Assembly: GCA_000004985.1 (NCBI GenBank) | Contig: GG738954.1 | Reading direction: 5' to 3' (one strand) | DNA length: 21,721 nt | Source of the DNA: Naegleria gruberi | Taxonomy: Eukaryota | Shown: piece after piece, positions 1 to 21,721 of the stretch | Layout: every line of letters starts with the position of its first letter | Position numbering within the stretch: the stretch's first letter is position 1 | Notes under the pieces: model-generated | The model's input: the letters and a program-made list of their open reading frames with translations, nothing else | What the model was told of the DNA's origin: nothing | Databases searched by the model: none | Program-made: the position numbers and the translations under genes

Positions 1-822
1 TTGGTGTTTAGGACTCTTGGAATGATATTCTGCATTGTGTCCAAATCATTCGTTGTGAATATCAGAAATAGAATGGAAACAAATGTCAAAATTAATTTTG
101 ATGTCACTAGTCAAGAATATAGAGATGTGTTTGTTTATGACAATAGCACAATCACTGGACAACAAGTGGGTATTGAATCTTACTGGAGAGAGCTAGATCA
201 AGGTTTCTATTCATTGGAAATCTTCTTTTCTACCAATACTGTCACCATTCTTTTAATTGCAATGTGTTTTATTGGAAATATCTTTCTTAAAACTGTGATT
301 CATGCAAAGGGACAACATCAATCGAAGGGTAGTAAGGTTTTATTGTATATTTTCAATGGATTGTCTTGTTTCTTTGGAATTTCCTTTTTTGTTATGGTTG
401 TGGTTTTGAGTGTCATCAGTCCGCTGTTTTGGTTGAAGATTTTGGAAAGAGATTCTGGAAATGTAGTGTTTATTGTGATGGCAGCAATATTTATATCTCA
501 AATATGTATTCAAAGTATATTTTCAATAGTAAGTTGACCAATCAGATGTTTTGTAAAAATTATTGAAATTTGACAGGTCAATACTGTGAAAGTCATTAAG
601 GTTATTAGAGAAATGGGTAAAACAGATACATCTAGAAGAGCTCTAGTTAAGGTTACTATTCTTCAACTCATCCTACTCATGACAGCTTTCATCTTTTTAA
701 TAGCAGCAATTTGTTATTCCATTTATGGAAATTACTTGTATTTGGCTTATTTCATTCTACTTAATATTGGGGTTATTGTATTTGTTTCTGTAATTTTGGC
801 AATTTCTGCATCAACTGCTTGA
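1..822 (+). CDS. 3' portion of a multi-pass membrane protein gene (5' end lies upstream of the window). Two exons, 1..528 and 577..822, joined in frame 1, stop TGA at 820..822. Several hydrophobic helices; possibly GPCR-like, function unknown.
   Basis: The frame-1 ORF is open from position 1. A GTAAGT donor sits at 529..534 immediately after codon 526..528, and a ...tttgacAG acceptor ends at 576. Exon 2 (577 onward) continues in the same frame for another 81 codons, including two more hydrophobic helices (LILLMTAFIFLIAAICY and LAYFILLNIGVIVFVSVILAI). Unspliced, the protein would stop at 535..537 straight after the donor. Confidence 0.55.
529..576 (+). other. spliceosomal intron (48 nt, GTAAGT...ACAG), phase 0
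   Basis: Canonical GTAAGT donor at 529..534, a pyrimidine/A-rich interior, an AG acceptor at 575..576, and frame preserved across the junction into an ORF rich in TM helices. Confidence 0.55.
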
Positions 823-888: not shown

Positions 889-1263
889 TCATTTAATTTT
901 CGTTTCTTGATTTATTTCAAATTGAAGAAGTTCACCATGTTGAGGATATTTAGCAATCAATTCTTTCATAAATTTCTCATTAGAACGAACAATTCTTGGT
1001 GCATGTTTGATTGAGTGGATGTGGTAATGAACTGAGAGTGAAACTATTTCCAAATTAGAGGCAAGTTCGAGGTCGATGAGTTTAAGTGTTGTTTCGTGAT
1101 GTTTGAGAGCTTGTTTGATAATGTCCAAATCAGATTTTAGTAATTGTTTCGTCTGGGTTATTCGAAAGTCTTGTTCTTCTTCATCATGTGGATAGCATTC
1201 GAATAATTGACTCACCATTTGTGGATAGTATTGAATGTTTGCCAGTAGAGCAGATAATAACAA
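889..1263 (-). CDS. hypothetical protein (124-aa ORF). The first ATG is at 1216..1218, which would give a 110-aa product.
   Basis: A 375-nt open frame on the minus strand in AT-rich sequence is unlikely by chance; stop TGA (complement of 889..891). No recognisable motif. The upstream overlapping ORF 1184..1366 (-) and a GTGAGT at about 1208..1213 (minus strand) leave the true 5' structure uncertain. Further 5' exons may lie towards or inside the 1457..5267 gap. Confidence 0.35.
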   Translation of the reverse strand: MLLSALLANIQYYPQMVSQLFECYPHDEEEQDFRITQTKQLLKSDLDIIKQALKHHETTLKLIDLELASNLEIVSLSVHYHIHSIKHAPRIVRSNEKFMKELIAKYPQHGELLQFEINQETKIK

Positions 1264-4400: not shown

Positions 4401-5267
4401 NNNNNNNNNNNNNNNNNNNNNNNNNNNNNNNNNNNNNNNNNNNNNNNNNNNNNNNNNNNNNNNNNNNNNNNNNNNNNNNNNNNNNNNNNNNNNNNNNNNN
4501 NNNNNNNNNNNNNNNNNNNNNNNNNNNNNNNNNNNNNNNNNNNNNNNNNNNNNNNNNNNNNNNNNNNNNNNNNNNNNNNNNNNNNNNNNNNNNNNNNNNN
4601 NNNNNNNNNNNNNNNNNNNNNNNNNNNNNNNNNNNNNNNNNNNNNNNNNNNNNNNNNNNNNNNNNNNNNNNNNNNNNNNNNNNNNNNNNNNNNNNNNNNN
4701 NNNNNNNNNNNNNNNNNNNNNNNNNNNNNNNNNNNNNNNNNNNNNNNNNNNNNNNNNNNNNNNNNNNNNNNNNNNNNNNNNNNNNNNNNNNNNNNNNNNN
4801 NNNNNNNNNNNNNNNNNNNNNNNNNNNNNNNNNNNNNNNNNNNNNNNNNNNNNNNNNNNNNNNNNNNNNNNNNNNNNNNNNNNNNNNNNNNNNNNNNNNN
4901 NNNNNNNNNNNNNNNNNNNNNNNNNNNNNNNNNNNNNNNNNNNNNNNNNNNNNNNNNNNNNNNNNNNNNNNNNNNNNNNNNNNNNNNNNNNNNNNNNNNN
5001 NNNNNNNNNNNNNNNNNNNNNNNNNNNNNNNNNNNNNNNNNNNNNNNNNNNNNNNNNNNNNNNNNNNNNNNNNNNNNNNNNNNNNNNNNNNNNNNNNNNN
5101 NNNNNNNNNNNNNNNNNNNNNNNNNNNNNNNNNNNNNNNNNNNNNNNNNNNNNNNNNNNNNNNNNNNNNNNNNNNNNNNNNNNNNNNNNNNNNNNNNNNN
5201 NNNNNNNNNNNNNNNNNNNNNNNNNNNNNNNNNNNNNNNNNNNNNNNNNNNNNNNNNNNNNNNNNNN
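1457..5267. other. assembly gap (3811 N)
   Basis: Continuous run of n. All four ORFs in the track running through it (1378..5514 and 1382..5329 on the minus strand, 1391..5272 and 1407..6146 on the plus strand) are artefacts of translating N as X. Confidence 1.
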
Positions 5268-6146
5268 GTTGATTCACTCTCTGAGAATATTCCACAAATT
5301 GACTTGACCAACTTTTTAAATGAATACAAGAATGAGAAGGGAAGAGGTTTCGCCAGTAGAGGAAGAAGTTTAAAATCAATTTTGAGTGGAAATATTTCAG
5401 AAAAGGAATCTCAACGATTGGATAACTTGTTTGGTGTAGAGTATTTGGAGGATATTTATGATGAATTGAGAACTGGTGATGTCTTGTTGCATTCTGGAAA
5501 GGGAACTTTCTCAAAAGCTATTCAATTGGGATTTTCATCGACTTGGTCTCACTTGTCGATTATTATTAGAAATCCACCGAAAGAATTATTGGAATTGTAT
5601 AAGGTTCAAGTTGATGCTTCATCAAGATTTTCAACTGTTTTTGTTGCAGAATCTGAAACTGATACTGTGGACAATAAGGAAGGTGGTGGAATTCAATTAG
5701 TAGAATTGAGAAGGTGGTTTATGGATTATTTGGAAAGAGATCCAACTGATTTGTGTTGTTTGAGAAGATTGAACATTCCTTCAATGGATAATAGACCAAA
5801 GGATGAGAATATTGTGGATCAATTCCCAACACTTGTTGATTATTTGAAGATTTCCATTGATAAGAAATACGAAACTTCAAAATCTGAATTATTGAAATGT
5901 GTCATTAAGAGAAATACTCAATCCAATGATGCTAATGTATTCTGTTCTGAATTTGTGGCTGAATGCTATCTTAGAATGGGTTTATTGCCACAAAACACAA
6001 TTACCTGCAATTATGGACCTCGTGACTTTAGTCAGGAATCTAATTTGGTTAATACAGTTCTATTGAAAGGAGCCAACTTGACAAAAGAAAAGAGAATTCG
6101 AGTAAGAGAATGGGATGAAAAGAATGATTGGAATGTTCAACCATAA
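5268..6146 (+). CDS. 3' part of a gene (start codon is inside the gap) encoding a permuted papain-fold hydrolase domain of the YiiX/YaeF (C92) / NlpC-P60 superfamily type; putative cysteine amidase or peptidase.
   Basis: In-frame continuation of the real-sequence end of ORF 1407..6146, with no Met between the gap edge and the domain; stop TAA at 6144..6146. Motifs seen in the translation: GDVLLHSGKGTFSKAIQ...TWSHLSIIIRN (a His-containing strand) followed about 150 aa later by VFCSEFVAECYLRMGLLP (a nucleophile Cys in a C-S-E-[FL]-V context). The His-before-Cys order is characteristic of permuted NlpC/P60-like enzymes. Confidence 0.6.
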   Translation, partial: VDSLSENIPQIDLTNFLNEYKNEKGRGFASRGRSLKSILSGNISEKESQRLDNLFGVEYLEDIYDELRTGDVLLHSGKGTFSKAIQLGFSSTWSHLSIIIRNPPKELLELYKVQVDASSRFSTVFVAESETDTVDNKEGGGIQLVELRRWFMDYLERDPTDLCCLRRLNIPSMDNRPKDENIVDQFPTLVDYLKISIDKKYETSKSELLKCVIKRNTQSNDANVFCSEFVAECYLRMGLLPQNTITCNYGPRDFSQESNLVNTVLLKGANLTKEKRIRVREWDEKNDWNVQP

Positions 6147-6271: not shown

Positions 6272-7405
6272 CTAAAAATAATCATTTTGTTCTCTACTGT
6301 TTGAGTTAGAATCATCTTGTTCAAACAAAAAATCAAAGTCTGAATTAAGGGGAAAATTACCATTAGAACTTTCGTCTTGTTGATTGGGATCATATGCTAA
6401 TAGGTCAGTAATACATTCTTCGAACAATCTTTGAGGCGAAGAAATTAGATTTGGGAAGGAATTTGGACTTGGTGGTGCACTACTGGCAGCCATTTGAGAC
6501 ATGGCAGTTGGATACGTAGAATTCGGGATTCTTGGATCCATTAATGGGGTTGTTGGGATGAAATTTTGCATCACCGTATTGAAAGTTAGTGGTGTACTAG
6601 CAGATGGTGTCATTGGAACAAAGTTTTGCATTGGATTGACACTTGGTGGTGTAATAATATTAGGAACTAGTGGTGACAAAGAGTTTCCAGAAAGTGTTTG
6701 AGAATTATAAGATTGAATACTACCTGTATCATCACCAGAAGAGGAAGCTGCAACTACCTTCTTCTTTCTTGGTTTAGTCTTCTCACTGGTCTTTCTTTTA
6801 GTTCCAGATTTTGGCTCTTGATCTTCAATCATCGTTTCAGCAGAGGAACTAGAGGAAGCAGAAGCAGCAGCTCTCTTTCTAGGCTTTCTTTTCTTTCTGT
6901 TTGTTGTTACAGGTTCCAATCCACCATCAACATTAATTTCTTCTTCTTTTTCTTCTGACATTTCATCATCATCAGCAATCCATAGAGGTTCATCTTCACC
7001 ATTCAAATAGATGGCTTGAACCACTGATAAATTAGAATTATTCCTGACCACAGCCAGCCTTGTCTTCAACTTGATAACATGACCAAGGAGCACAATAATA
7101 ATATCACCCACTGCCTTTGTTGGGCACTTAACTTGACAAGCACCAAGTATCTTGGAAATTGTCATTTCAGCACGCATCTTGTTATCGCTAAAGTTGTTCT
7201 TCATCATGTACCAGCCTGATCTGTTTTGCAATGCATCAACCACAACCACTCTGATCTTGATGCCATCGAACAATTCCAATGAAACATGGGCCAATCCCTT
7301 CTTTCTAATAACAATTTTAAAAACAGGACGATGGGTAATTGGATCGTAAATAGTTTGTTCAAAGATTGGTTTATCAACGTTATTGACGTTATTGTTCTTG
7401 GTCAT
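6272..7405 (-). CDS. hypothetical nuclear protein, likely a transcription regulator: about 150-aa N-terminal globular domain of unrecognised family, an acidic stretch, two basic NLS-like clusters, an S/T/P-rich region with internal repeats, and an acidic/hydrophobic C-terminal tail.
   Basis: Intronless 377-aa ORF with ATG (complement of 7403..7405) and TAG stop (complement of 6272..6274). Features in the translation: basic clusters RKKRKPRKR and KRKTSEKTKPRKKK; a Ser run (AAASASSSSSA); a repeated motif MQNFVPMTPSASTP / MQNFIPTTPLMDP; and a C-terminal DFDFLFEQDD activation-domain-like tail. The plus-strand ORFs 6501..6701, 6698..6958 and 7152..7349 are antisense to this gene and are rejected. 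Confidence 0.7.
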   Translation of the reverse strand: MTKNNNVNNVDKPIFEQTIYDPITHRPVFKIVIRKKGLAHVSLELFDGIKIRVVVVDALQNRSGWYMMKNNFSDNKMRAEMTISKILGACQVKCPTKAVGDIIIVLLGHVIKLKTRLAVVRNNSNLSVVQAIYLNGEDEPLWIADDDEMSEEKEEEINVDGGLEPVTTNRKKRKPRKRAAASASSSSSAETMIEDQEPKSGTKRKTSEKTKPRKKKVVAASSSGDDTGSIQSYNSQTLSGNSLSPLVPNIITPPSVNPMQNFVPMTPSASTPLTFNTVMQNFIPTTPLMDPRIPNSTYPTAMSQMAASSAPPSPNSFPNLISSPQRLFEECITDLLAYDPNQQDESSNGNFPLNSDFDFLFEQDDSNSNSREQNDYF

Positions 7406-7676: not shown

Positions 7677-10405
7677 NNNNNNNNNNNNNNNNNNNNNNNN
7701 NNNNNNNNNNNNNNNNNNNNNNNNNNNNNNNNNNNNNNNNNNNNNNNNNNNNNNNNNNNNNNNNNNNNNNNNNNNNNNNNNNNNNNNNNNNNNNNNNNNN
7801 NNNNNNNNNNNNNNNNNNNNNNNNNNNNNNNNNNNNNNNNNNNNNNNNNNNNNNNNNNNNNNNNNNNNNNNNNNNNNNNNNNNNNNNNNNNNNNNNNNNN
7901 NNNNNNNNNNNNNNNNNNNNNNNNNNNNNNNNNNNNNNNNNNNNNNNNNNNNNNNNNNNNNNNNNNNNNNNNNNNNNNNNNNNNNNNNNNNNNNNNNNNN
8001 NNNNNNNNNNNNNNNNNNNNNNNNNNNNNNNNNNNNNNNNNNNNNNNNNNNNNNNNNNNNNNNNNNNNNNNNNNNNNNNNNNNNNNNNNNNNNNNNNNNN
8101 NNNNNNNNNNNNNNNNNNNNNNNNNNNNNNNNNNNNNNNNNNNNNNNNNNNNNNNNNNNNNNNNNNNNNNNNNNNNNNNNNNNNNNNNNNNNNNNNNNNN
8201 NNNNNNNNNNNNNNNNNNNNNNNNNNNNNNNNNNNNNNNNNNNNNNNNNNNNNNNNNNNNNNNNNNNNNNNNNNNNNNNNNNNNNNNNNNNNNNNNNNNN
8301 NNNNNNNNNNNNNNNNNNNNNNNNNNNNNNNNNNNNNNNNNNNNNNNNNNNNNNNNNNNNNNNNNNNNNNNNNNNNNNNNNNNNNNNNNNNNNNNNNNNN
8401 NNNNNNNNNNNNNNNNNNNNNNNNNNNNNNNNNNNNNNNNNNNNNNNNNNNNNNNNNNNNNNNNNNNNNNNNNNNNNNNNNNNNNNNNNNNNNNNNNNNN
8501 NNNNNNNNNNNNNNNNNNNNNNNNNNNNNNNNNNNNNNNNNNNNNNNNNNNNNNNNNNNNNNNNNNNNNNNNNNNNNNNNNNNNNNNNNNNNNNNNNNNN
8601 NNNNNNNNNNNNNNNNNNNNNNNNNNNNNNNNNNNNNNNNNNNNNNNNNNNNNNNNNNNNNNNNNNNNNNNNNNNNNNNNNNNNNNNNNNNNNNNNNNNN
8701 NNNNNNNNNNNNNNNNNNNNNNNNNNNNNNNNNNNNNNNNNNNNNNNNNNNNNNNNNNNNNNNNNNNNNNNNNNNNNNNNNNNNNNNNNNNNNNNNNNNN
8801 NNNNNNNNNNNNNNNNNNNNNNNNNNNNNNNNNNNNNNNNNNNNNNNNNNNNNNNNNNNNNNNNNNNNNNNNNNNNNNNNNNNNNNNNNNNNNNNNNNNN
8901 NNNNNNNNNNNNNNNNNNNNNNNNNNNNNNNNNNNNNNNNNNNNNNNNNNNNNNNNNNNNNNNNNNNNNNNNNNNNNNNNNNNNNNNNNNNNNNNNNNNN
9001 NNNNNNNNNNNNNNNNNNNNNNNNNNNNNNNNNNNNNNNNNNNNNNNNNNNNNNNNNNNNNNNNNNNNNNNNNNNNNNNNNNNNNNNNNNNNNNNNNNNN
9101 NNNNNNNNNNNNNNNNNNNNNNNNNNNNNNNNNNNNNNNNNNNNNNNNNNNNNNNNNNNNNNNNNNNNNNNNNNNNNNNNNNNNNNNNNNNNNNNNNNNN
9201 NNNNNNNNNNNNNNNNNNNNNNNNNNNNNNNNNNNNNNNNNNNNNNNNNNNNNNNNNNNNNNNNNNNNNNNNNNNNNNNNNNNNNNNNNNNNNNNNNNNN
9301 NNNNNNNNNNNNNNNNNNNNNNNNNNNNNNNNNNNNNNNNNNNNNNNNNNNNNNNNNNNNNNNNNNNNNNNNNNNNNNNNNNNNNNNNNNNNNNNNNNNN
9401 NNNNNNNNNNNNNNNNNNNNNNNNNNNNNNNNNNNNNNNNNNNNNNNNNNNNNNNNNNNNNNNNNNNNNNNNNNNNNNNNNNNNNNNNNNNNNNNNNNNN
9501 NNNNNNNNNNNNNNNNNNNNNNNNNNNNNNNNNNNNNNNNNNNNNNNNNNNNNNNNNNNNNNNNNNNNNNNNNNNNNNNNNNNNNNNNNNNNNNNNNNNN
9601 NNNNNNNNNNNNNNNNNNNNNNNNNNNNNNNNNNNNNNNNNNNNNNNNNNNNNNNNNNNNNNNNNNNNNNNNNNNNNNNNNNNNNNNNNNNNNNNNNNNN
9701 NNNNNNNNNNNNNNNNNNNNNNNNNNNNNNNNNNNNNNNNNNNNNNNNNNNNNNNNNNNNNNNNNNNNNNNNNNNNNNNNNNNNNNNNNNNNNNNNNNNN
9801 NNNNNNNNNNNNNNNNNNNNNNNNNNNNNNNNNNNNNNNNNNNNNNNNNNNNNNNNNNNNNNNNNNNNNNNNNNNNNNNNNNNNNNNNNNNNNNNNNNNN
9901 NNNNNNNNNNNNNNNNNNNNNNNNNNNNNNNNNNNNNNNNNNNNNNNNNNNNNNNNNNNNNNNNNNNNNNNNNNNNNNNNNNNNNNNNNNNNNNNNNNNN
10001 NNNNNNNNNNNNNNNNNNNNNNNNNNNNNNNNNNNNNNNNNNNNNNNNNNNNNNNNNNNNNNNNNNNNNNNNNNNNNNNNNNNNNNNNNNNNNNNNNNNN
10101 NNNNNNNNNNNNNNNNNNNNNNNNNNNNNNNNNNNNNNNNNNNNNNNNNNNNNNNNNNNNNNNNNNNNNNNNNNNNNNNNNNNNNNNNNNNNNNNNNNNN
10201 NNNNNNNNNNNNNNNNNNNNNNNNNNNNNNNNNNNNNNNNNNNNNNNNNNNNNNNNNNNNNNNNNNNNNNNNNNNNNNNNNNNNNNNNNNNNNNNNNNNN
10301 NNNNNNNNNNNNNNNNNNNNNNNNNNNNNNNNNNNNNNNNNNNNNNNNNNNNNNNNNNNNNNNNNNNNNNNNNNNNNNNNNNNNNNNNNNNNNNNNNNNN
10401 NNNNN
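7677..10405. other. assembly gap (2729 N)
   Basis: Continuous run of n. All three minus-strand gap ORFs are artefacts. Of the two plus-strand gap ORFs, only the real-sequence tail of 7644..10478 (10406 onward) is retained; 7618..10413 is an artefact. Confidence 1.
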
Positions 10406-11331: not shown

Positions 11332-14300
11332 ATGGAATCAACATTAGGCAGAAGATCATCTATTTCCACCTCTTCATCAGATGGTGGTTCTTCAATAACT
11401 TCTGCCTCTTTTGCCAGCTCCTTATTCAAAACCTTTAATGAATATCTATCAATGATGTATTTATGTAGCAAGATGAGGATGAACACCCTCACAAGGTTTA
11501 GCAACAGTAAAGGCAGCTATGTAGAAGGTTTGCCTGTAACAGTCCCTTGGAAGATACGACTGGCTAGATTGGCTATATCGTTATGGTTTTTATACATGTT
11601 GTGGATTGGAATTTGGTTACCTGCATTGACTTCTCATCAGGAGTATTCTAGTATACTTTCATCTAATAGTACCATAAATAATGAATATAATACTTCACCG
11701 TTTGGATTTGAAGGAGGATGGGTATTTAGAGTATTGAACTATCCACTCACTTTATCAACAGATGCCATTCCTTATGAGGGAATAATTGCACTTTCTGTCA
11801 TATTTACATTGATTTCATTGGTGAATATTATCTTGATGATTATTGGAATGAAGAAGAGATGTGAAGGAATTTACAAAATATTTGACAAGGTTGGGATGTA
11901 TTGTTCATTAGTAGTATCGTTTATTGGACCAGTTGCCTTATTTATTATGAGCAGTTTTGTTGATTGTAATCCAAATATTCAAATCAATGTCGAAGATCAG
12001 ACAGCAAGTGTTTCTGGATTGTCAAGATTTCCATCAGTTCAATGTTATTCTAAAACAAATACTATTTTAATTGTCATGAGTTTGATTGGAATGATGATTA
12101 CATTTGTGAGTTGGAGTTTCTCTGTGTTTTTATTGCCAATCAATACACCCAATGTTGGAATTCCTTTTGTGACGAAGGATAACTTTATATTGGCACCAAC
12201 TATTTGCACGATAGGATTCGAATTGTTAATCATATTCTTGATTCCACCGAATTACATGATGGGGAGAGCGATAGTTCATCTCATTTTGAGCATTTATCAA
12301 CATTCCACTCATCATTTACAGTTTACCATTTTATCATCGAATGATGAATTCACTCTATTTTGGAGTTGTTTGTGCAAGATTTGGAGTTAGTATTGGATTT
12401 TTGATTAGTTCATTGGTCAATTTAAATCTTTTGAGTGATTTGGGACTTGGAATGATGGGATTGAGTATTGGATTGGGAATTCTATTTTTCATTCTTGCTT
12501 TTACTGCTTTGGAAATTTACACAAGGTTGTGCTGCAGGCGAATTAGAAACATCTTTTCAAGAAAGATATCAGAATCCACAATCACTAACAGCAAGCAAGA
12601 CATCAACCTTTACTCAATAGTAGAAAAGGAAGCTCTTTCAATCTTTACTCTTTGTGAGCATGTTTCATCCAGAAGTTTGACTCTATTCTTGCAATCTACT
12701 GTTTGCCTAAAAGAACAAAACGGGTATAAGGAGGATGATGAATATATAGCACTGGACGATAAGTTGTTGGCAATATCCTTTGTCAAGTCTATTTCGCAAC
12801 AAAAATCTTTCGTCAATGCAGACATGTTGATAATTTCCGGAATGCTTATTAACTTTAATAGCAAAGAGGACAACAAGTATCAATTCGCCAGTTATCTTCT
12901 AGCAAAAGCATACAAACGAACCTCCAACACTATCAAGAAGTTAATCGTTTTAGAAAAACAAAAAGAAATTGAGATTGATTTGAATGAAGTGACCAAAACA
13001 AATATTGAAGTCAGAAATGCAATCACAGAGGTGGCTAAAAAGTTGGAAGAATTACGTATTGTTCATAGATCATTCTGGAAGGAAATGCTTAATGAAATGC
13101 CAAACGAAACCAAACTTTTACAAATTAATAGTAAGGCAACCGTATTATCCAAATTTTGTGAAAAATCCTTTTCCAACTTGATGAAGTCTCATAATCATGA
13201 CAAGACAGTAATCAGATTCTATGCAAAATATGTGGAGGAATTCAAGTTTGATAAGGAATTGTCGAATTCATTGTTTGAAGAAGCTAACCAGTTGGAAGAC
13301 GAAGAATCCAGATCAAGAAAGTATTCAATAATGAAATTACAACCAAATGAAACAAAGAAATTCAAAAATAAGGTAGCTCCATCATCTCCAAATTTAATGG
13401 ATGATATGAGTGTTACTGGAAGAGAAACCATGTTCGATTCTATGGGATCGCTCAGCATGAAAAAATTCTCTAATCAGCCAACTAACAATCCATTAAATGA
13501 GACAGATTTTGAAGGAGTAGAAAATGAAGGTATTGACAAGAAGGAATCATTTTTCAGAGCTGCCATCAATACTCCATTTCAATCAAAGTTGAAAATATCC
13601 ATCTTCCTTGGCCTTTCAGTGCTATTACATATTTGTATGATTGCAATATTTGTGCTAAGTATGGTATTTAGTGAAAAAGTTGTTTCTACTCCTCTTGTAT
13701 TGCAGAGTTGCATTACAGGCTCAACACCTGGCGCCTTGTTGAGATTTACGAGAATGAATCAAATTTTGACTGAGGTTTACGCAAATGAAGGACAACCTTG
13801 GTTACAGAACTCTACCAGGTATTACGAAATTAATAACTTTTTGAAAAATTACAAGAATAGATATTTGGAGCATAAGGGGTATTTGGAAACATTAATTTCC
13901 AATTCACAATCAGGAAAGTTTACAAGTAACATGTATACTGACTTTACAGAGAGAGCAAGTCCAATTTTAATTCCAATTTCAACAACAGACCCTAAATCTA
14001 TTGAATTTGTAAATACCTTCTCAAAGAATGTTTCAATGAGTGAAGTTTCTCAAGAATTCTTGCATCATGTTGAACAATTTTTGAACTTTGGAGAAAAGCA
14101 ATACAATGAAACAACAAAAAGTTACAGTTTCATGTATGTCTACTTGAATAGAAGATATTTAGCCGATAATTATCTCCAATTCTGTAGATCATTCCAGGAG
14201 AGCGAAAGAGCTAGTACTTTTGAACTGAATATCATACTCTCGAGCTATATTTTTGCTTCTTCTTCCGTAATGACGATGATTTACGTTATTTTCATTTTGA

Positions 14301-14887
14301 TTTCAAGGAGTGAGATGACTTGGTTCAGTAAGATCACATCTCTTTACAAGAAAATTCCAAAAGATTTTGTTGGAATAATTTATCACAAATTGGAAGAAAA
14401 GACAAAAGATGATGCCAAACATTTGAAGAAAAATCCTCTCTTGCAACCAAAAAATTTTACTTTAATACTGGCTATTTTGATAGTTGTAATATTCATGTTG
14501 TCTTCTGGTTTGATTTATTATGAAATTTCAATGAATATTTCAACTGCATCATCTGCCATTTACAATGTTGATTTGATGAGCGTCTTTTTGAGAACAGTTC
14601 ATAGAGTTACTATTAGATTAAATGAATTCTTCATTTATCTTACCCTGCCTTCTGGAAAATTCATTAACAGTCCATATTTAGTTTCGAATAATTCACAATT
14701 GCAAACAATGAAAACAGAAATCAGACAATTCATTGATTTGACTGCAACCATTTATGATCAGGTTATTTATGGCCAAGATGGAGTTACTTCTTCTCTTGTT
14801 GGGCAATATTCTGAAATTGACAAGATGATAACAGGTCAGTCCACATGCAGCAATTCCACAATTGATTACGAAATTAGCAATAATGGA
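11332..14887 (+). pseudogene. copy 1 of the giant membrane-sensor adenylyl-cyclase paralog family (8-TM N-terminal block, coiled coil, TM-bracketed loops). A +1 frameshift (extra g at about 12294) splits the reading frame: 11332..12390 in frame 1, then 12341..14887 in frame 2. The 3' end (PAS and cyclase) is missing at the 14888..15050 gap. Either a pseudogene or a sequencing error.
   Basis: The ATG at 11332 sits in an aaaag-aATGGA context like the copy-3 start. The N-terminal TM block from 11693 onward is about 93-95% identical at nucleotide level to copy 3 (20137 onward). At 12281..12300, copy 1 reads catctcattttgaGcatttatc where copy 3 reads catctcattttgacatttatc; one extra base shifts the frame and gives a stop at 12388..12390. 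The downstream frame (12341..14887) is collinear with copy 2 (15058..17589). The frame-1 ORF extension back to 11194 is not conserved in copy 3 and is taken to be 5' UTR. Confidence 0.6.
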
Positions 14888-15050
14888 NNNNNNNNNNNNN
14901 NNNNNNNNNNNNNNNNNNNNNNNNNNNNNNNNNNNNNNNNNNNNNNNNNNNNNNNNNNNNNNNNNNNNNNNNNNNNNNNNNNNNNNNNNNNNNNNNNNNN
15001 NNNNNNNNNNNNNNNNNNNNNNNNNNNNNNNNNNNNNNNNNNNNNNNNNN
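14888..15050. other. assembly gap (163 N) joining non-collinear parts of two paralogs
   Basis: Upstream of the gap, copy 1 ends at the position equivalent to copy 2 nt 17589 (the ...IDYEISNNG loop). Downstream, sequence resumes at the position equivalent to copy 1 nt 12338 / copy 3 nt 20778 (the ...YHRMMNSLYF junction). About 1.6 kb of copy 1 (its 3' part) plus an intergenic region plus about 1.1 kb of copy 2 (its 5' part) are unaccounted for. Confidence 1.
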
Positions 15051-18000
15051 TCATCGAATGATGAATTCACTCTATTTTGGAATTGTTTGTGCAAGATTTG
15101 GAGTGAGTATTGGATTTTTGATTAGCTCATTAGTCAATTTAAATCTTTTGAGTGATTTGGGTCTTGGAATGATGGGATTGAGTATTGGATTGGGAATTCT
15201 ATTTTTCATTCTTGCTTTTACTGCTTTGGAAATTTACACACTCGTAGTTTGCAGACAAATAAGAAATATTTTCAAAACCAAGATTAGTGCCTGTGAAATA
15301 AATGAGAGCAGAGCAGATTTATCACTTTACAACATTATTGAAAGAGAGGCAGTTTCCATTTTCATTGTTTGTGAACAATTATCTCTAAGACACTTGATGT
15401 TGTTTTTACAATTTTCAATTGGGCAAAATGTGAAACATCACTCCCCCGATCATTACGGTGTGACTATTGTCAGTGATCCATTAATGGCTATTGCTTTTGT
15501 GAAATCCATTTCTCAGCAGAAATCCTTCCTTAATACTGAAATGTTGCTCATTTCAAGTGTTTTGGTCAATTACATTTGGCAAGATGATCACAGATCTCAA
15601 TTTGCAAATTATCTACTGGCAAAGGCTCTTAAACATTGTCATCAAACGTTAAAGAGAGTTCTTATCACTGAAAAACAAAAAGAAATTGAAATTACACTTA
15701 ACGAGCTAACCAAGACAAATATGGAAGTAAGAAACACAATTACAGAATTAGAAATTACCCTTGCTGAGCTTCGAATTGTTCATAAATCATTCTGGAAGGA
15801 AATGTTGAACGATATTCCAAACGAAACCAAACTTTCACAAATTAATAGCAGAGCTTCTGTCCTAACACTATTCTGTGACCAGAATTTCCTCAATCTTACC
15901 AAAGCTCACAGTCATGATAAGACAGTGATTCGTTTTTATGCATCCTACCTTGAGGAATTCAAATTCGATAAGGAACTATCTACTTCATTGTTTGAAGAAG
16001 CTGCTGCAATGGAAGAAGAAGAATCGAGATCAAAGAATGTCAATCATCACAATCCACAATCATATTACGAAGCAAAGAAATTCAAGAATAAGATTGTGCC
16101 CTCATCCAATGTGGAAATGTCCACCAATAATGAAGATATTAGTACTGAAAGAGATGAAAGTGGTTCAGCCCTAAATGGAAAAAGTCAATTCAATGGGAAT
16201 GAGATGGATTTCGAAGGTGTCGAAAATCAAGGAATTGACAAGAAGGAAACCTTCTTCAGAACTGCCATCAATGCTCCATTCCAATCCAAACTGAGAATCT
16301 CGATCTTTCTATTCTTGTCAGTTTTGATGCATGTCTTGTTAATTGTCATTTTCATTCTGAGTATTGTTTATAATGAGAGAGTTGTTTCTACTCCTCTTGT
16401 ATTGCAGAGTTGCATTCCTGGTTCAACACCTGGTGCATTACTAAGAGTTGCAAGAATGAATCAAATTTTGACTGAGGTTTACGCAAATGAAGGACAATCA
16501 TGGTTAAAGAACTCGAGTAGAATGTATGAATTGAATTATTTCACATCAACCTTCAGAAATCGATATTTGGAGCATAAGGGGTATTTGGAAACATTAATTT
16601 CCAATTCACAATCAGGTAAATTTACAAGTAACATGTATAATGACTTTACAGAGAGAGCAAGTCCAATTTTAATTCCAATTTCAACAACAGATCCTAAATC
16701 GATTGAATTTGTAAACACCTTCTCAAAGAATGTTTCAATGAGTGAAGTTTCTCAAGAATTCTTGCATCATGTTGAGCAATTTTTGAACTTTGGAGAAAAG
16801 CAATACAATGAAACAACAAAGAGTTACAGTTTCATGTACATTTATTTAAATAGAAGATATTTAGCCGATAATTATCTCCAATTCTGCAAGTCATTCCAGG
16901 AAAGCGAAAGAGCCAACACTCACCAGTTGAATATTATTTTACTGGCCTATATTTTCACATCCTCCTCAGTAATGACGATGATTTACGTTATTTTCATTTT
17001 GATTTCAAGGAGTGAGATGACATGGTTCAGTAAGATCACATCTCTTTACAAGAAAATTCCAAAAGATTTTGTTGGAATAATTTATCACAAATTAGAAGAA
17101 AAGACAAAAGATGATGCCAAGCACTTGAAGAAAAATCCTCTCTTGCAACCAAAGGCCTTTTCTCTGATATTGGCACTTCTAATTGTGACAGTTTTCATGT
17201 TGTCTTCTGGTTTGATTTATTATGAAATTTCAATGAATATTTCAACTGCTTCATCTGCCATTTACAATGTTGATTTGCTGAGTGTATTTTTGAGAACAGT
17301 TCATAGAGTTACCATTAGACTGAATGAATTGTTTATTTACTTGTCATTGCCATCTGGAAAATTCATTAACAGTCCATATTTAGTTTCGAATAATTCACAA
17401 TTGCAAACAATGAAAACAGAAATCAGACAATTCATTGATTTGACAGCAACCATTTATGATCAGGTTATTTATGGACAAGATGGAATAACAACACCACTCG
17501 TTGGAAAATACTCCAAATTAGATAAGATTATTACTGGTCTATCGACTTGCACCAATTCCTCAATTGACTATAATTGGAAATCTAATGGAAACAAAATTAT
17601 TGGACAAAGTAATGAATTGTTAAAAGATTGTTATGGTCTTCAAAAGTACATGTCTACATTCACAATTCTTGCAGGACAAGTGAGTGAAAAGTTCTTCAAT
17701 CCTTCCTATGCTTCGACACAATCTGAAGAAGCATTCGCAGAATTGTTAACATTATTTAATATGTGTGATATGGTTTATGACAAGTTTAGAGATTTTCTCA
17801 CAACATTGGTCAGTTTGACATCTGTTCCTTCCATTACAATTTCAATTGTCTTGATTTTCGGTATAACTTCAATGCTCATATTACAATATATGATTTTCAT
17901 CAGTTTCCAAACCTATGATCACGAAATAACCAATATGAAAGCATTCTTGAATTATCTGTCCACAGAATTCATAGAATCAAATGATGGACTCAAGAGTTTT

Positions 18001-19206
18001 GCCTTGTACAACTCTATTGGAACGAACTATTTGACTGGACGAAAGCTAAAACAATCCTCAGCTACAGATCAAGATTCTTTGAAGAAATTAATGAGTTCAA
18101 TGGTAGATGGTGCACTATTAGCAAACGAAAGTGGAGATATCATTCTTTTCAACGGACCAGCTCAGAACATGTTCGGAAAGTCAATTTCTGATGTTCTGGG
18201 AACAAACTTTATGCATTTATTTGATGAGCACTCTGGTGAAAAGTTGTCCAACATTTTGAAAACAATCAAGAGTGAAATTGATGAAAATGTCAAACATGGA
18301 GATGTTATTGAATTGGAATGTGTTAGAAAGAATTCCACAAAGTTTCCAGCCATGGTTACTATCTTTGTTTCGAGAATTTCTGGCAGCTCTTACAAGGGAA
18401 AGAGTAACTCAATGGTTGTTTCATGCTTTATGAGAGATATCACTCCAGAGAAGAAGCAAAATTCACTTCTAGCAGAGGAGAAGAAAAATTCAGAAAATTT
18501 ATTGAGAAACATCTTGCCAGATGCTGTTGCAAGCAAGTTGAAATCAGGTGAGACATTTATTGCTGAGAGATTTAGTGATATTACTTGTTTCTTTAGTGAT
18601 ATGGTTGGTTTTACGAAAATGTCAAGTGGAATGAATCCAAGTGAATTGGTTTTGATGTTGTCATCAATTGTGAATGGATTTGATGATTTGACAGATGTTT
18701 ATTCATTGGAAAAGATCAAGACAATTGGTGATGCTTATTTTTGTGTTGGAGGTTTACATAATAATCCACAATCTGATCATCCTGAAAGAACATTGAGATT
18801 TGCAATTGATACATTTCAAGTGATTAGAAATTATAATATTGAACATCCTCAAAATCAATTGAATATTCGAGTTGGAATCAATACAGGATCAGTTGTTGCT
18901 GGTGTAATTGGAAAGAAGAAGTTTGCCTATGATTTATGGGGTGATACCATCAATACTGCTTCTCGAATGGAATCAACTTCAATGGCAGGAAGAATTCAAA
19001 TTTCCAGATCAACCTATCAGAGAGTCTATGATATTGGATTTGAATTTGAACAGAGAAGTGTTGAAGTGAAAGGAAAAGGTGTTTGTGAAACCTATTTATT
19101 GAAGGATAAACATCATGCAACGTCAATAATTCCAGTAACAGAATCACAAATTCTCAAGAAGGAACAAAGCAACGAAGAAAAATTAAGCGAACAATTAGAT
19201 CAATAA
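15051..19206 (+). CDS. copy 2: membrane-sensor adenylyl cyclase, 5'-truncated by the gap (open frame from 15052; first in-frame ATG at 15058; 1382 codons to TAA at 19204..19206). Order of parts: TM pair, coiled coil, TM, about 180-aa loop, TM, TM, about 190-aa loop, TM, PAS, class III cyclase domain.
   Basis: A single uninterrupted 4.1-kb ORF. Hydrophobic helices at about 15058..15250, 16290..16380, 16925..17010, 17160..17230 and 17800..17900. Heptad-rich segment EKQKEIEITLNELTKTNMEVRNTITELEITLAELRIVHKSF at about 15660..15790. C-terminal cyclase motifs: FFSDMVGFT (metal-binding Asp), KIKTIGDAYFCVGGL (second metal Asp plus specificity Lys), YDLWGDTINTASRMEST (specificity Asp, and the Asn/Arg transition-state pair). 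Confidence 0.85.
18080..18440 (+). other. PAS sensor domain within copy 2
   Basis: LKKLMSSMVDGALLANESGDIILFNGPAQNMFGKSISDVLGTNFMHLFDE...GDVIELECVRKNSTKFPAMVTIFVSR. The PAS-like core pattern is hydrophobic - N - x - A - x - x - hydrophobic - hydrophobic - G, followed by a beta-rich segment, placed between the last TM helix and the cyclase domain. Confidence 0.55.
18550..19100 (+). other. class III nucleotidyl cyclase catalytic domain (CYC/CHD), with residues predicting adenylyl cyclase specificity and homodimeric function
   Basis: Both metal-binding Asp residues are present (FSDMVGF and IGDAY). The base-specifying pair is Lys (KIKTIGD) and Asp (YDLWG), not the Glu/Cys pair of guanylyl cyclases. 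The Asn (TINTA) and Arg (SRME) transition-state residues are also present. Having every catalytic residue in one domain is typical of cyclases that act as homodimers. Confidence 0.9.
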
Positions 19207-19703
19207 AATGCCAGGTTTTGAGATAATGGTGGGCTTAGAATTTAACGAAAATGGTTTGCCTTCTTGATGTGTTTTGAAGCTGAATTAGGTTAAATGTTAT
19301 TACCGAGAGTCGTTTTACTTAGTTACACATGCAGCTGAGATTCATCGGTGGTGCTGGCATCGGTAGAGTCTTTCATTAAATTTGAAGTGGTTGACTTTTC
19401 ATTAGAAATATTTGCGATGAGATGGAAAAATGATTGATGTTGAGGTGAAAATTTATGTCATGGCTTCTCGAAATCTACAACCACATAGCTTGGATCCTCA
19501 TCCTAAAACAAATCTTGACCCAAATAAGTAACAATCTCTACAGCTCTTGCACATCCCAAAAACAGACCTGCGCCACAAAATTTTCTTTTTTTTACCCAAA
19601 TTTCCTTAATAATGCCTCAACAACCTCCACAAATTACAGTTGCAAAAATGGCGCTCTTTTTCGCTAAGGCAATTAGTCATTTAAAACCAACCTTAGAAAA
19701 AAA

Positions 19704-21721
19704 ATGGAGCCATCATCGATAGGGGGAGGATCATCAGTTTCAGGCTCCACACAAACATCCAATGCCTCTTCAAGTTCCTTGTCTGGAAACATCTTTAGAA
19801 CAGTTAATGAATTTCTCACAAATTTGTACATGTCGGGAAAGTTGAGAATGAATGGTTTAACGAGACAATATACATCAATGAATAGCAGTTTGTTAGGTGC
19901 TGGTGTTTCTAGTGCTGGATTTTATGAGAGCTTTAATAGGAAACCTTCGTGGAATGTAAGGTTGTGCAGAGGTTTACTGTTTGTCTGGTTTTTGTATATC
20001 ATGTGGATTGGAGTGTGGTTACCTGGATTAACTTCTCATCAGGATTATTCACAAATATATTCTTCATCATCTTCTGTTTCATCATCAAGCAATTCAGGAA
20101 ATCAAACGAGTAGTATAGTAAATAATGAATTTAACACTTCACCGTTTGGATTTGAAGGAGGATGGGTATTTAGAGTATTGAATTATCCACTCACTTTATC
20201 AACAGATGCCATTCCTTATGAGGGAATAATTGCCTTGTCTGTCCTATTTACATTGATTTCATTGGTGAATATTATCTTGATGATTATTGGAATGAAGAAG
20301 AGATATGGAAATGTTTACAAATTCTTGGATAAAGTGGCGATGTGTTGGGGAATGATTGTATTATTCAGTGGACCAGTTGCCTTGTTTATTATGAGCAGTT
20401 TTATTGATTGTAATCCAAATATTAGGATTGAAATTGAGAATCAGACAGCAAGTGTTTCTGGATTGTCAAGATTTCCAACAGTTCAGTGCTATTCAGCTGA
20501 TAATATAGTATTACTAGTTCTGAGTTTGATTGGAATGATGATTACATTTGTGAGTTGGGGTTTCTCTGTGTTTTTATTGCCAATCAATACACCCAATGTT
20601 GGAATTCCTTTTGTGACGAAGGATAACTTTATATTGGCACCAACCATTTGCACGATAGGATTGGAATTGTTAATCATGTTCTTGATTCCACCGAATTTCA
20701 TGATGGGGAGAGCGATTGTTCATCTCATTTTGACATTTATCAACATTCCACTCATCATTTACAGTTTACCATTTTATCATCGAATGATGAATTCACTCTA
20801 TTTTGGAATTGTTTGTGCAAGATTTGGAGTGAGTATTGGAGTATTGATTAGCTCATTGGTCAATTTAAATCTGTTGAGTGATTTGGGACTTGGAATGATG
20901 GGATTGAGTATTGGATTGGGAATTCTATTTTTCATTCTTGCTTTTACTGCTTTGGAGATTTACACGCTCGTTGTTTGCAGACAAATAAGAAATATTTTCA
21001 AAACCAAGATTAGTGCCTGTGAAATAACTGAGAGCAGAGCAGATTTATCCCTGTACAACATTATTGAAAGAGAGGCAGTTTCCATTTTCATTGTTTGTGA
21101 ACAATTATCTCTGAGACACTTGATGTTGTTTTTACAATTTTCAATTGGGAAAAATGTGAAACATCACTCCCCCGATCATTACGGTGTGACTATTGTCAGT
21201 GATCCATTGATGGCTATTGCTTTTGTGAAATCCATTTCTCAGCAGAAATCCTTCCTTAATACTGAAATGTTGCTCATTTCAAGTGTTTTGGTCAACTACA
21301 TTTGGCAAGATGATCACAGATCTCAATTTGCAAATTATCTACTAGCAAAGGCTCTTAAACATTGTCATCAAACTTTAAAGAGAGTTCTTATCACTGAAAA
21401 ACAAAAAGAAATTGAAATTACACTCAACGAGCTAACCAAGACAAATATGGAAGTAAGAAACACAATTACAGAATTAGAAATAACCCTTGCTGAGCTTCGA
21501 ATTGTTCATAAATCATTCTGGAAGGAAATGTTGAACGATATTCCAAACGAAACCAAACTTTCACAAATTAATAGCAGAGCTTCTGTCCTAACACTATTCT
21601 GTGACCAGAATTTCCTCAATCTTACCAAAGCTCACAGTCACGATAAGACAGTGATACGTTTTTATGCGTCCTACCTTGAGGAATTCAAATTCGATAAGGA
21701 ACTATCTACTTCATTGTTTGA
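19704..21721 (+). CDS. copy 3: membrane-sensor adenylyl cyclase paralog, 5' complete (ATG 19704..19706), open to the window end (3' partial). N-terminal Ser-rich segment, then the 8-TM block, then the start of the coiled-coil region.
   Basis: Translated codon by codon from 19704 to 21721 in frame (positions divisible by 3) with no stop. It is missing from the supplied ORF track, apparently because that track requires a terminal stop. About 97-98% nucleotide identity to copy 2 over 20785..21721 versus 15058..15994 (about 22 mismatches in about 940 nt). N-terminal TM block 93-95% identical to copy 1. ORF 20648..20851 (+) and ORF 20489..20701 (-) are off-frame or antisense and are rejected. Confidence 0.8.
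   Translation, partial: MEPSSIGGGSSVSGSTQTSNASSSSLSGNIFRTVNEFLTNLYMSGKLRMNGLTRQYTSMNSSLLGAGVSSAGFYESFNRKPSWNVRLCRGLLFVWFLYIMWIGVWLPGLTSHQDYSQIYSSSSSVSSSSNSGNQTSSIVNNEFNTSPFGFEGGWVFRVLNYPLTLSTDAIPYEGIIALSVLFTLISLVNIILMIIGMKKRYGNVYKFLDKVAMCWGMIVLFSGPVALFIMSSFIDCNPNIRIEIENQTASVSGLSRFPTVQCYSADNIVLLVLSLIGMMITFVSWGFSVFLLPINTPNVGIPFVTKDNFILAPTICTIGLELLIMFLIPPNFMMGRAIVHLILTFINIPLIIYSLPFYHRMMNSLYFGIVCARFGVSIGVLISSLVNLNLLSDLGLGMMGLSIGLGILFFILAFTALEIYTLVVCRQIRNIFKTKISACEITESRADLSLYNIIEREAVSIFIVCEQLSLRHLMLFLQFSIGKNVKHHSPDHYGVTIVSDPLMAIAFVKSISQQKSFLNTEMLLISSVLVNYIWQDDHRSQFANYLLAKALKHCHQTLKRVLITEKQKEIEITLNELTKTNMEVRNTITELEITLAELRIVHKSFWKEMLNDIPNETKLSQINSRASVLTLFCDQNFLNLTKAHSHDKTVIRFYASYLEEFKFDKELSTSLF

What the first reader, a model, noticed from the sequence alone, without database searches (positions are those of the whole stretch)
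11332..21721. Tandem array of giant membrane-sensor adenylyl cyclases with a new domain layout
Three consecutive same-strand paralogs encode proteins of roughly 1800 aa with the order: N-terminal 8-TM block, coiled coil, TM, about 180-aa loop, TM, TM, about 190-aa loop, TM, PAS, class III cyclase domain. The two large loops bracketed by TM helices carry conserved Cys residues and several N-x-[ST] sites, so they look like extracytoplasmic ligand-sensing modules. I cannot assign them to any known sensor fold. The N-terminal 8-TM block also has no obvious family: I found no K-channel selectivity filter and no rhodopsin lysine. The combination may be a lineage-specific family of environmental-sensing cAMP generators, expanded by local duplication.
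Basis: partly seen in the sequence, partly recalled or inferred. Interest (0 to 1): 0.65.

Follow-up and report, generated by a model that had tools for sequence, protein, structure and literature searches.

The report
Naegleria TmcB-like receptor adenylyl cyclase paralogs
This small, gap-ridden scaffold of the amoeba Naegleria gruberi holds pieces of two or three neighbouring copies of a 12-helix membrane adenylyl cyclase of about 1,740 residues; its two large outside loops look like bacterial chemoreceptor sensor bundles, and the family, confined to Naegleria's relatives (Heterolobosea), is in the databases but has never been studied.

Summary

No copy is intact here. Copy 1 has a 1-nt frameshift and is cut by an assembly gap. 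Copy 2 starts mid-gene after that gap. Copy 3 runs off the scaffold end. Only the copy 2 to copy 3 adjacency lies in gap-free sequence.

Conserved Cys pairs and N-glycosylation sequons fit an outside-facing position. An exhaustive profile search found only 200 relatives, and every hit matching over more than the TPR whose source I could look up is heterolobosean.

Verdict: a real, uncharacterised, lineage-specific receptor-type cyclase family, already deposited with automatic annotation. It is a new variant of a known kind.

The parts
11332..12290 (+). Copy 1, N-terminal part (frame 1): N-terminus and TM1-TM6 of the 8-TM block
   Evidence: The ATG at 11332 matches the start of the full-length paralog P0001. 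P0001 aa 1-320 are 98.4% identical to this stretch.
12289..12291 (+). 1-nt insertion (frameshift) in copy 1
   Evidence: Copy 1 reads TTGAGCATTTATC where copy 3 reads TTGA-CATTTATC. The frame changes from 1 to 2 here. This is also the point where identity to P0001 drops from 98% to 74%.
12290..14887 (+). Copy 1 body (frame 2): TM7-8, TPR_TmcB region, TM9, loop 1, TM10, TM11 and about half of loop 2; cut by the gap
   Evidence: ORF 12341-15061. TPR_TmcB E 2.6e-14. DNA is 81% identical to copy 2. dN/dS against copy 2 is 0.17.
14888..15050 (.). Assembly gap (163 N) separating copy 1 from copy 2
   Evidence: N-run. The sequence resumes at the position equivalent to 12334 in copy 1 and 20777 in copy 3.
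15058..15255 (+). Copy 2: TM7 and TM8 (the ORF begins mid-gene)
   Evidence: Hydropathy. 97.7% DNA identity to copy 3 20777-21721.
15256..16293 (+). Copy 2: cytoplasmic helical region; the Pfam TPR_TmcB match lies at 15724-16029
   Evidence: PF25474, E 2.9e-13, 50.3 bits against a cut-off of 27.
16297..17910 (+). Copy 2 sensor module: TM9 (16297-16365), loop 1 (16366-16929), TM10 (16930-17007), cytoplasmic linker, TM11 (17149-17223), loop 2 (17224-17832), TM12 (17833-17910)
18079..18444 (+). Copy 2 PAS domain
   Evidence: PAS_9 E 9e-15, PAS E 1.4e-7.
18445..18561 (+). Copy 2 helical linker between PAS and cyclase (cyclase-transducer-like segment NLLRNILPDAVASKLK)
   Evidence: Aligns with the helix preceding C2 of AC9. 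Nearly invariant in 30 family members.
18562..19104 (+). Copy 2 class III cyclase catalytic domain; stop codon at 19204-19206
   Evidence: PF00211 E 6.9e-57. Alignment to AC9 C1 and C2 shows both metal-binding Asp, Lys and Asp for ATP specificity, and the Asn and Arg.
19704..21721 (+). Copy 3, N-terminal 672 aa: 8-TM block (about 19965-20978) and start of the TPR_TmcB region; runs off the scaffold end
   Evidence: Open frame from ATG 19704. TPR_TmcB E 9.6e-10. Public partial model P0020.

Best explanation
These are neighbouring paralogs of a heterolobosean family of receptor-type class III adenylyl cyclases.

**Shown**
- One chain has 12 TM helices and a cytoplasmic TPR_TmcB domain between TM8 and TM9.
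- It has two loops of about 190-200 aa, between TM9/10 and TM11/12. Each folds into a helical bundle continuous with its flanking TM helices.
- After TM12 come a PAS domain, a conserved helical linker and one catalytic domain. That domain has all the residues needed for a homodimeric, ATP-specific cyclase.

**Inferred**
- The protein works as a homodimer, or as a heterodimer of paralogs.
- The two disulfide-stabilised, glycosylated bundles face the outside. They bind a ligand or sense a physical cue in the way four-helix-bundle chemoreceptor and histidine-kinase sensors do.
- Helix displacement passes through TM12 to the PAS domain and the linker helix, which sets the geometry of the two catalytic domains and so the cAMP output.
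- The PAS domain may add a second, cytoplasmic input.
- The N-terminal 8-TM block and the TPR domain have no assigned role. They may act as a scaffold or regulatory platform.
- The copies arose by recent local duplication with gene conversion and remain under purifying selection.
For: **Identity of the window.** P0019 and P0020 are N. gruberi gene models on a contig of exactly 21,721 bp.

**Domains.** Pfam hits on the window copies. A census of 30 full-length members gives cyclase 30/30, PAS 29/30 and TPR_TmcB 27/30.

**Catalytic residues.** The alignment to AC9 shows FSDMVGFT and IGDAYF (metal-binding Asp), KTIG and YDLWGD (Lys and Asp for ATP), and NTASRM (Asn and Arg).

**Topology.** 12 hydrophobic segments. 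The linker between TM10 and TM11 is rich in Lys and Arg (11 of 47 residues).

**Outside-facing loops.** Cys pairs are conserved at 91-100% and sequons at 53-83%.

**Family size and range.** There are 200 hits among 1.84 billion representatives. At least 30 have the complete order. The named ones are Naegleria, Willaertia, Acrasis and Pharyngomonas.

**Selection.** dN/dS is 0.17 for copy 1 against copy 2 and 0.05 for copy 2 against copy 3.
Against: - There is no experimental data on activity, localisation, ligand or expression.
- No sequence relation to any sensor family was found. Pfam gave nothing recurrent up to E = 1, and a PDB profile search gave nothing below E = 1.5. Foldseek found nothing significant.
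- I could not inspect model coordinates, so the disulfides and the packing of the two bundles are unverified.
- Topology comes from hydropathy and parity, not from a dedicated predictor.
- 'Outside' could equally be the lumen of an organelle.
- None of the copies in the window is intact.
Confidence: 0.6

Rival explanations
1. Transporter- or channel-coupled cyclase. On this view the 12-TM module moves or conducts a solute or ion and the cyclase reports that activity, as in the ciliate and apicomplexan K+-channel cyclases. The loops would be structural caps rather than ligand sensors.
For: There are twelve TM helices. The 8-TM N-terminal block is conserved, with motifs that include polar and charged residues (consensus). 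No sensor family is detected by sequence in the loops.
Against: No Pfam transporter or ion-channel family hits any of 30 members at E up to 0.05. No PDB chain matches the N-block profile below E = 0.39. There is no internal 4+4 repeat in the N-block. The loops match sensor bundles better than anything else in the PDB.
Confidence: 0.15
2. Endomembrane protein. The same enzyme would sit in an internal membrane such as the contractile vacuole, ER or Golgi, or a phagosome. The loops would then face the lumen and sense lumenal content or membrane state rather than the environment.
For: Disulfides and N-glycosylation sequons fit a lumenal position as well as an extracellular one. No signal peptide or sorting information was analysed.
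Against: Nothing here distinguishes the plasma membrane from an endomembrane. The analogy with bacterial periplasmic sensors says nothing about the compartment.
Confidence: 0.15
3. The 'array' is largely an assembly product or a set of decaying copies. This unplaced 21.7-kb scaffold would mix reads from near-identical paralogs or haplotypes. Copy 1 would be a pseudogene or a chimeric consensus, and the real locus would hold fewer genes, for example a P0001-like gene plus copy 3.
For: About 31% of the scaffold is N. P0001 on a 508-kb scaffold equals the copy 1 N-terminus plus the copy 2 body at 98% each. The frameshift lies exactly at the switch point, inside a tract 99% identical between copies. 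The 163-N gap is far too small for the missing 3.2 kb or more. Identity between copies is mosaic. The public gene model is a chimera.
Against: Copy 2 and copy 3 are head-to-tail in gap-free sequence. The copy 1 body is a distinct sequence, 81% identical to copy 2, with dS 0.96 and dN/dS 0.17, so at least three different coding sequences exist. Whatever the local assembly, the family itself is real.
Confidence: 0.35

Closest known systems
Dictyostelium TmcB / TmcB-like membrane proteins (Pfam PF25474 TPR_TmcB)
   Same: The TPR_TmcB domain is matched above the Pfam cut-off. It sits between an N-terminal multi-TM block and a four-TM segment with two large loops. A green-algal TPR_TmcB protein, P0165, has the same TM spacing. 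TmcB is reported as a regulator of the cAMP pathway (Muramoto et al. 2005, cited in PMC12750705).
   Different: TmcB itself could not be retrieved and compared. P0165 and some heterolobosean members lack the cyclase. Outside Heterolobosea, the one named hit (P0165) matched my profile over the TPR region only.
Bacterial four-helix-bundle sensor domains (4HB_MCP/TarH type: Tar, Tsr, PcaY, NarX/NarQ, NIT)
   Different: No sequence similarity was found. There are two bundles per chain instead of one. Disulfides, sequons and a beta-hairpin insertion are present. The context is eukaryotic. The bundle fold is simple, so convergence is likely.
Receptor-type class III adenylyl cyclases of protists (trypanosomatid receptor cyclases, Dictyostelium ACG)
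   Same: An extracytoplasmic sensor is followed by a TM helix and a single catalytic domain that must dimerise. These cyclases also form lineage-specific gene expansions. This comparison rests on my own knowledge.
   Different: Those have a single TM or few TMs, with a periplasmic-binding-protein-like or CHASE ectodomain. Here there are 12 TMs, a TPR_TmcB domain, two helical-bundle loops and a PAS domain. No such ectodomain families are detected.
Animal membrane adenylyl cyclases (AC1-9)
   Same: These are the closest catalytic-domain sequences in the PDB (AC9, E 4e-66). The helix preceding the catalytic domain is conserved, and there are 12 TM helices in total.
   Different: Animal enzymes are 6TM-C1-6TM-C2 pseudo-heterodimers with short loops. 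Here all 12 TMs precede one catalytic domain, and that domain combines the C1 and C2 catalytic residues.

Membership tests
Class III nucleotidyl cyclase (PF00211), ATP-specific, homodimeric type | Catalytic-domain profile match above the curated cut-off | tested here: met
   192.4 bits against a cut-off of 21.9, E 6.9e-57. Present in 30 of 30 family members.
Class III nucleotidyl cyclase (PF00211), ATP-specific, homodimeric type | Two metal-binding Asp, substrate-specifying Lys and Asp, and transition-state Asn and Arg, all in one domain | tested here: met
   The alignment to AC9 C1 and C2 gives FSDMVGFT, IGDAYF, KTIG, YDLWGD and NTASRM. These positions are nearly invariant in 30 members.
Class III nucleotidyl cyclase (PF00211), ATP-specific, homodimeric type | Measured cAMP synthesis and dimerisation | not testable with these tools
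   Needs enzyme assays.
TmcB-like proteins (PF25474 TPR_TmcB) | TPR_TmcB profile match above the curated cut-off | tested here: met
   50.3 bits (copy 2), 53.6 (copy 1) and 38.9 (copy 3) against a cut-off of 27. Present in 27 of 30 members.
TmcB-like proteins (PF25474 TPR_TmcB) | Full-length similarity to Dictyostelium TmcB, including the TM blocks and loops | not tested
   The TmcB sequence could not be retrieved, because the word-index searches returned only Naegleria proteins. The algal TPR_TmcB protein P0165 shares the TM spacing.
Bacterial 4HB sensor domains (4HB_MCP / TarH / NIT) | Four-helix-bundle fold between two TM helices | tested here: met
Bacterial 4HB sensor domains (4HB_MCP / TarH / NIT) | Sequence-profile membership | tested here: not met
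   No such Pfam family appears in 30 full-length members at E up to 0.05, nor in 11 loop segments at E up to 1. A PDB profile search gave nothing below E = 1.5.
K+-channel-fused cyclases of ciliates and apicomplexans | Ion-transport or channel domain in the TM block | tested here: not met
   No ion-channel Pfam hit in any member.
Animal-type 2x6TM pseudo-heterodimeric cyclase | Two catalytic domains (C1, C2), each preceded by 6 TM helices | tested here: not met
   There is one catalytic domain, after all 12 TM helices.
Prominin / Tweety-homolog type membrane proteins | Structural match of the two-loop helical ectodomain | tested here: not met

The most novel reading that the evidence does not exclude
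TmcB-like membrane modules would be a eukaryotic class of chemoreceptor. Their two helical-bundle loops in one chain would form an intramolecular counterpart of the bacterial 4HB sensor dimer. In Heterolobosea this receptor is fused directly to PAS and an adenylyl cyclase. That would be a Rosetta-stone fusion: it would explain why cyclase-less TmcB regulates cAMP signalling in Dictyostelium, and it predicts that TmcB partners physically with a cyclase.
Probability: 0.25. Interest if true: 0.65.

Novelty: new variant of a known kind. Interest (0 to 1): 0.45.

Why it matters
Naegleria carries one of the largest cyclase repertoires of any microbe (at least 81 by the count in PMC9928731). What these enzymes sense is unknown, including in the brain-eating N. 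fowleri, which has several members of this family.

A defined architecture with a confidently modelled ectodomain gives concrete targets for ligand screens and for chimeras with reporter cyclases. It also links the otherwise obscure TmcB-like proteins to cAMP synthesis.

On the practical side, the public gene model for this scaffold is a chimera and should not be used as a reference sequence.

Tried and rejected
**Searches that failed or added nothing**
- Two of the three word-index homology searches, run with alignments of the membrane module, returned only Naegleria proteins. They could not reach TmcB or other distant relatives.
- Exact-sequence locus look-ups for P0001, P0020 and P0003 found nothing. 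I therefore could not inspect the 508-kb scaffold or test for tandem clusters elsewhere.
- The AlphaFold-database fold libraries were not available.
- Foldseek against the PDB gave nothing significant.
- Literature searches found no description of this architecture.

**Models and ideas set aside**
- The first AF2 run, on a 5-sequence alignment, was unusable (pLDDT 47.6).
- I considered a Prominin/TTYH-like ectodomain, because the TM-loop-TM-TM-loop-TM pattern is similar. I dropped it for lack of structural support.
- I tested the N-block for an internal 4+4 duplication; the result was negative.
- I tested for duplication of the TM-loop-TM unit. There is only a weak hint (P 1e-4 over 222 columns, probability 58%).
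- A LOV, heme or flavin assignment for the PAS domain is not supported: only generic PAS families match.
Full report
**Origin of the window**

The window has three N-runs: 1457-5267, 7677-10405 and 14888-15050. Coding GC is about 33%. The copy 2 protein is 98% identical to a Naegleria gruberi predicted protein. The cluster look-up showed a second member, P0019 (NAEGRDRAFT_76300, XP_002668778.1), on a contig of exactly 21,721 bp. P0020, a partial N. gruberi protein identical to copy 3, is on the same contig. The window is therefore a whole small scaffold of the NEG-M reference assembly, and the N-runs are scaffold gaps.

**Anatomy of the copies**

- Copy 1 starts at ATG 11332, the same start as the full-length paralog P0001. 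It reads in frame 1 to about 12290 and then continues in frame 2 to the gap at 14887.
- The frame change is a single extra base: TTGAGCATTTATC against TTGA-CATTTATC in copy 3. It lies inside a 120-nt tract that is 99% identical between the two copies.
- Copy 2 resumes directly after the gap, at the position equivalent to 12334 in copy 1 and 20777 in copy 3. It is open from 15058 to the stop at 19206, 1382 aa.
- Copy 3 starts at ATG 19704, after a 497-nt spacer, and is open to the scaffold end, 672 aa.
- DNA identity is 81% for copy 1 against copy 2, 79% for copy 1 against copy 3, and 97.7% for copy 2 against copy 3.
- dN/dS is 0.17 for copy 1 against copy 2 (dS 0.96) and 0.05 for copy 2 against copy 3 (dS 0.10). 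The sequences have evolved as coding genes.
- Identity between copies 1 and 2 is mosaic, 65-100% per 60 nt. This indicates gene conversion or assembly mixing.

**How far the assembly can be trusted**

P0001 (NAEGRDRAFT_71008, 1740 aa, on a 508-kb scaffold) matches the copy 1 N-terminus at 98.4% over aa 1-320. It matches the copy 2 body at 97.9% over aa 335-1710, but the copy 1 body at only 74%. The switch falls exactly at the frameshift.

The 163-N gap would need to hide the last 1.6 kb or so of copy 1, a spacer and the first 1.07 kb or so of copy 2. The public model P0019 begins mid-gene at 12344, runs through the copy 1 body, jumps the gap as if it were an intron and continues in copy 2. It is a chimera.

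In my view only the copy 2 to copy 3 tandem adjacency is secure. Copy 1 may be a pseudogene, a recombination product or a chimeric consensus.

**Domain layout**

- Pfam finds Guanylate_cyc (E 6.9e-57), PAS_9 (9e-15) and TPR_TmcB (2.9e-13, 50.3 bits against a cut-off of 27) in copy 2. It also finds TPR_TmcB in copies 1 and 3.
- Hydropathy on the 1742-aa composite gives eight N-terminal TM segments at about aa 88-425.
- A cytoplasmic region of about 345 aa follows.
- Next come TM9, a loop of about 186 aa, TM10, a 47-aa linker with 11 Lys or Arg, TM11, a loop of about 200 aa and TM12.
- With PAS and the cyclase in the cytoplasm, both loops lie outside. So do the TM1-2 and TM3-4 loops of the N-block, and the TM3-4 loop carries a conserved Cys pair (C236, C262).

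**Catalytic domain**

The closest solved relatives are animal AC9, AC8 and AC5 (E down to 4e-66). The alignment shows the C1-type metal-binding Asp residues (FSDMVGFT, IGDAYF) together with the C2-type Lys (KTIG), Asp (YDLWGD), Asn and Arg (NTASRM) in one domain. The helix NLLRNILPDAVASKLK aligns with the helix that precedes C2.

This is the residue set of a homodimeric, ATP-specific class III cyclase. The assignment rests on established knowledge of the class; activity was not measured.

**Family**

- I built a profile of TM7 to TM12 and ran it with HMMER against 1.84 billion representatives. It found only 200 proteins at E up to 1e-3, of which 70 score at 1e-30 or better.
- Local domain HMMs show at least 30 representatives with the full order: N-block, TM7/8, TPR, loop 1, loop 2, PAS, cyclase.
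- Every hit matching over more than the TPR whose source I could look up is heterolobosean: N. gruberi (at least four further loci), N. lovaniensis, N. fowleri, Willaertia magna, Acrasis kona and Pharyngomonas kirbyi.
- A Pfam census of 30 full-length members gives cyclase 30/30, PAS 29/30 and TPR_TmcB 27/30. No family is assigned to the N-block or the loops.
- Cyclase-less relatives exist: Willaertia P0004, which keeps PAS, and P0024 and P0042, unnamed representatives with only TPR_TmcB.
- A green-algal protein, P0165 (TPR_TmcB E 8e-38 plus PAS, no cyclase), keeps the same TM spacing. The membrane module therefore appears to be the general TmcB-like layout, with PAS and cyclase added in Heterolobosea.

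**The loops**

- Across 53-56 members, loop 1 has a Cys pair at C452 and C610, each 98% conserved. Loop 2 has a pair at C831 (91%) and C858 (100%).
- Sequons at N558 (83%), N830 (69%) and N584 (53%) recur.
- A first AF2 run on 5 sequences failed (pLDDT 47.6). With a 61-row alignment, the segment from TM9 to TM12 reached pLDDT 88.6 and pTM 0.81.
- In that model each loop is a bundle of long helices. The first and last helices continue into the TM helices, and loop 1 has an inserted beta-hairpin.
- Foldseek against the PDB found nothing at E up to 1e-3.
- A profile search of the loops against PDB sequences, and Pfam scans up to E = 1, gave nothing. The resemblance is one of fold and architecture, not demonstrable homology.
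- hhalign of TM9-loop1-TM10 against TM11-loop2-TM12 gave P 1e-4 over 222 columns (probability 58%). TM-containing controls gave 0.01-0.1 over 24-42 columns. This is a weak hint of an ancient duplication of the unit.

**N-terminal block**

There is no Pfam hit, no PDB sequence relative and no internal repeat.

**Mechanism**

The shown and inferred steps are set out under the best explanation. In short, two outside-facing helical-bundle sensors per chain would pass a signal through TM12, PAS and the conserved linker helix to a dimeric cyclase. The main alternatives are a transport-coupled enzyme, an endomembrane location, and an assembly artefact for the array itself.

**Literature**

The Naegleria pangenome paper counts at least 81 cyclases and notes that membrane-bound cyclases serve in sensing (PMC9928731). 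The Acrasis genome paper notes an enrichment of cyclase domains (PMC11589745). Dictyostelium tmcB is cited as a regulator of the cAMP pathway in macrocyst formation (PMC12750705, citing Muramoto et al. 2005). I found no paper describing this architecture, but the searchable library is incomplete.

**Verdict**

The family is real and uncharacterised, and its architecture is distinctive. Its parts are known kinds, and the proteins are already deposited with automatic domain annotation. The 'three-gene tandem array' is only partly secure. I rate it a new variant of a known kind, with interest 0.45.

Noticed in passing
window 12344-19206: The public gene model NAEGRDRAFT_76300 (P0019, 2187 aa) is a chimera. 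It starts mid-gene, runs through the copy 1 body, treats the assembly gap 14888-15050 as an intron and continues in copy 2.
   Followed up: yes
window 12289-12291: The copy 1 frameshift lies exactly where identity to the full-length paralog P0001 drops from 98% to 74%. It sits inside a tract 99% identical between copies. It could be a recombination breakpoint or a chimeric consensus.
   Followed up: partly
window 13638-14868 vs 16340-17570: Identity between copies 1 and 2 is mosaic. Blocks of 97-100% alternate with blocks of 65-80% per 60 nt, as expected from gene conversion between tandem paralogs or from assembly mixing.
   Followed up: partly
window 1457-5267, 7677-10405, 14888-15050: Three N-runs make up 6,703 of 21,721 bases (31%). 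ORF lists across them are meaningless, and genes in the first half of the scaffold are fragments.
   Followed up: yes
window 5268-6146 (+): This is the open C-terminal part of a gene emerging from the first gap. It has a borderline match to Peptidase_C92, the permuted papain-like amidase family (E 5.7e-6, 26.9 bits against a cut-off of 27).
   Followed up: partly
window 889-1263 (-) and 6272-7405 (-): The first is a 124-aa ORF with a DUF4116 repeat match (E 1.5e-6). The second is a 377-aa Ser/Pro/acidic low-complexity ORF with only weak, probably compositional, hits.
   Followed up: no
window 1-537 and 586-822 (+): These are two hydrophobic ORFs at the scaffold start with no Pfam match. They may be exons of a truncated membrane protein.
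   Followed up: no
P0004 (Willaertia magna), P0024, P0042, P0165 (Pedinophyceae): Relatives with the same membrane layout but no cyclase domain exist. P0004 and P0165 keep PAS, while P0024 and P0042 have only TPR_TmcB. This shows that the TmcB-like module occurs on its own.
   Followed up: partly
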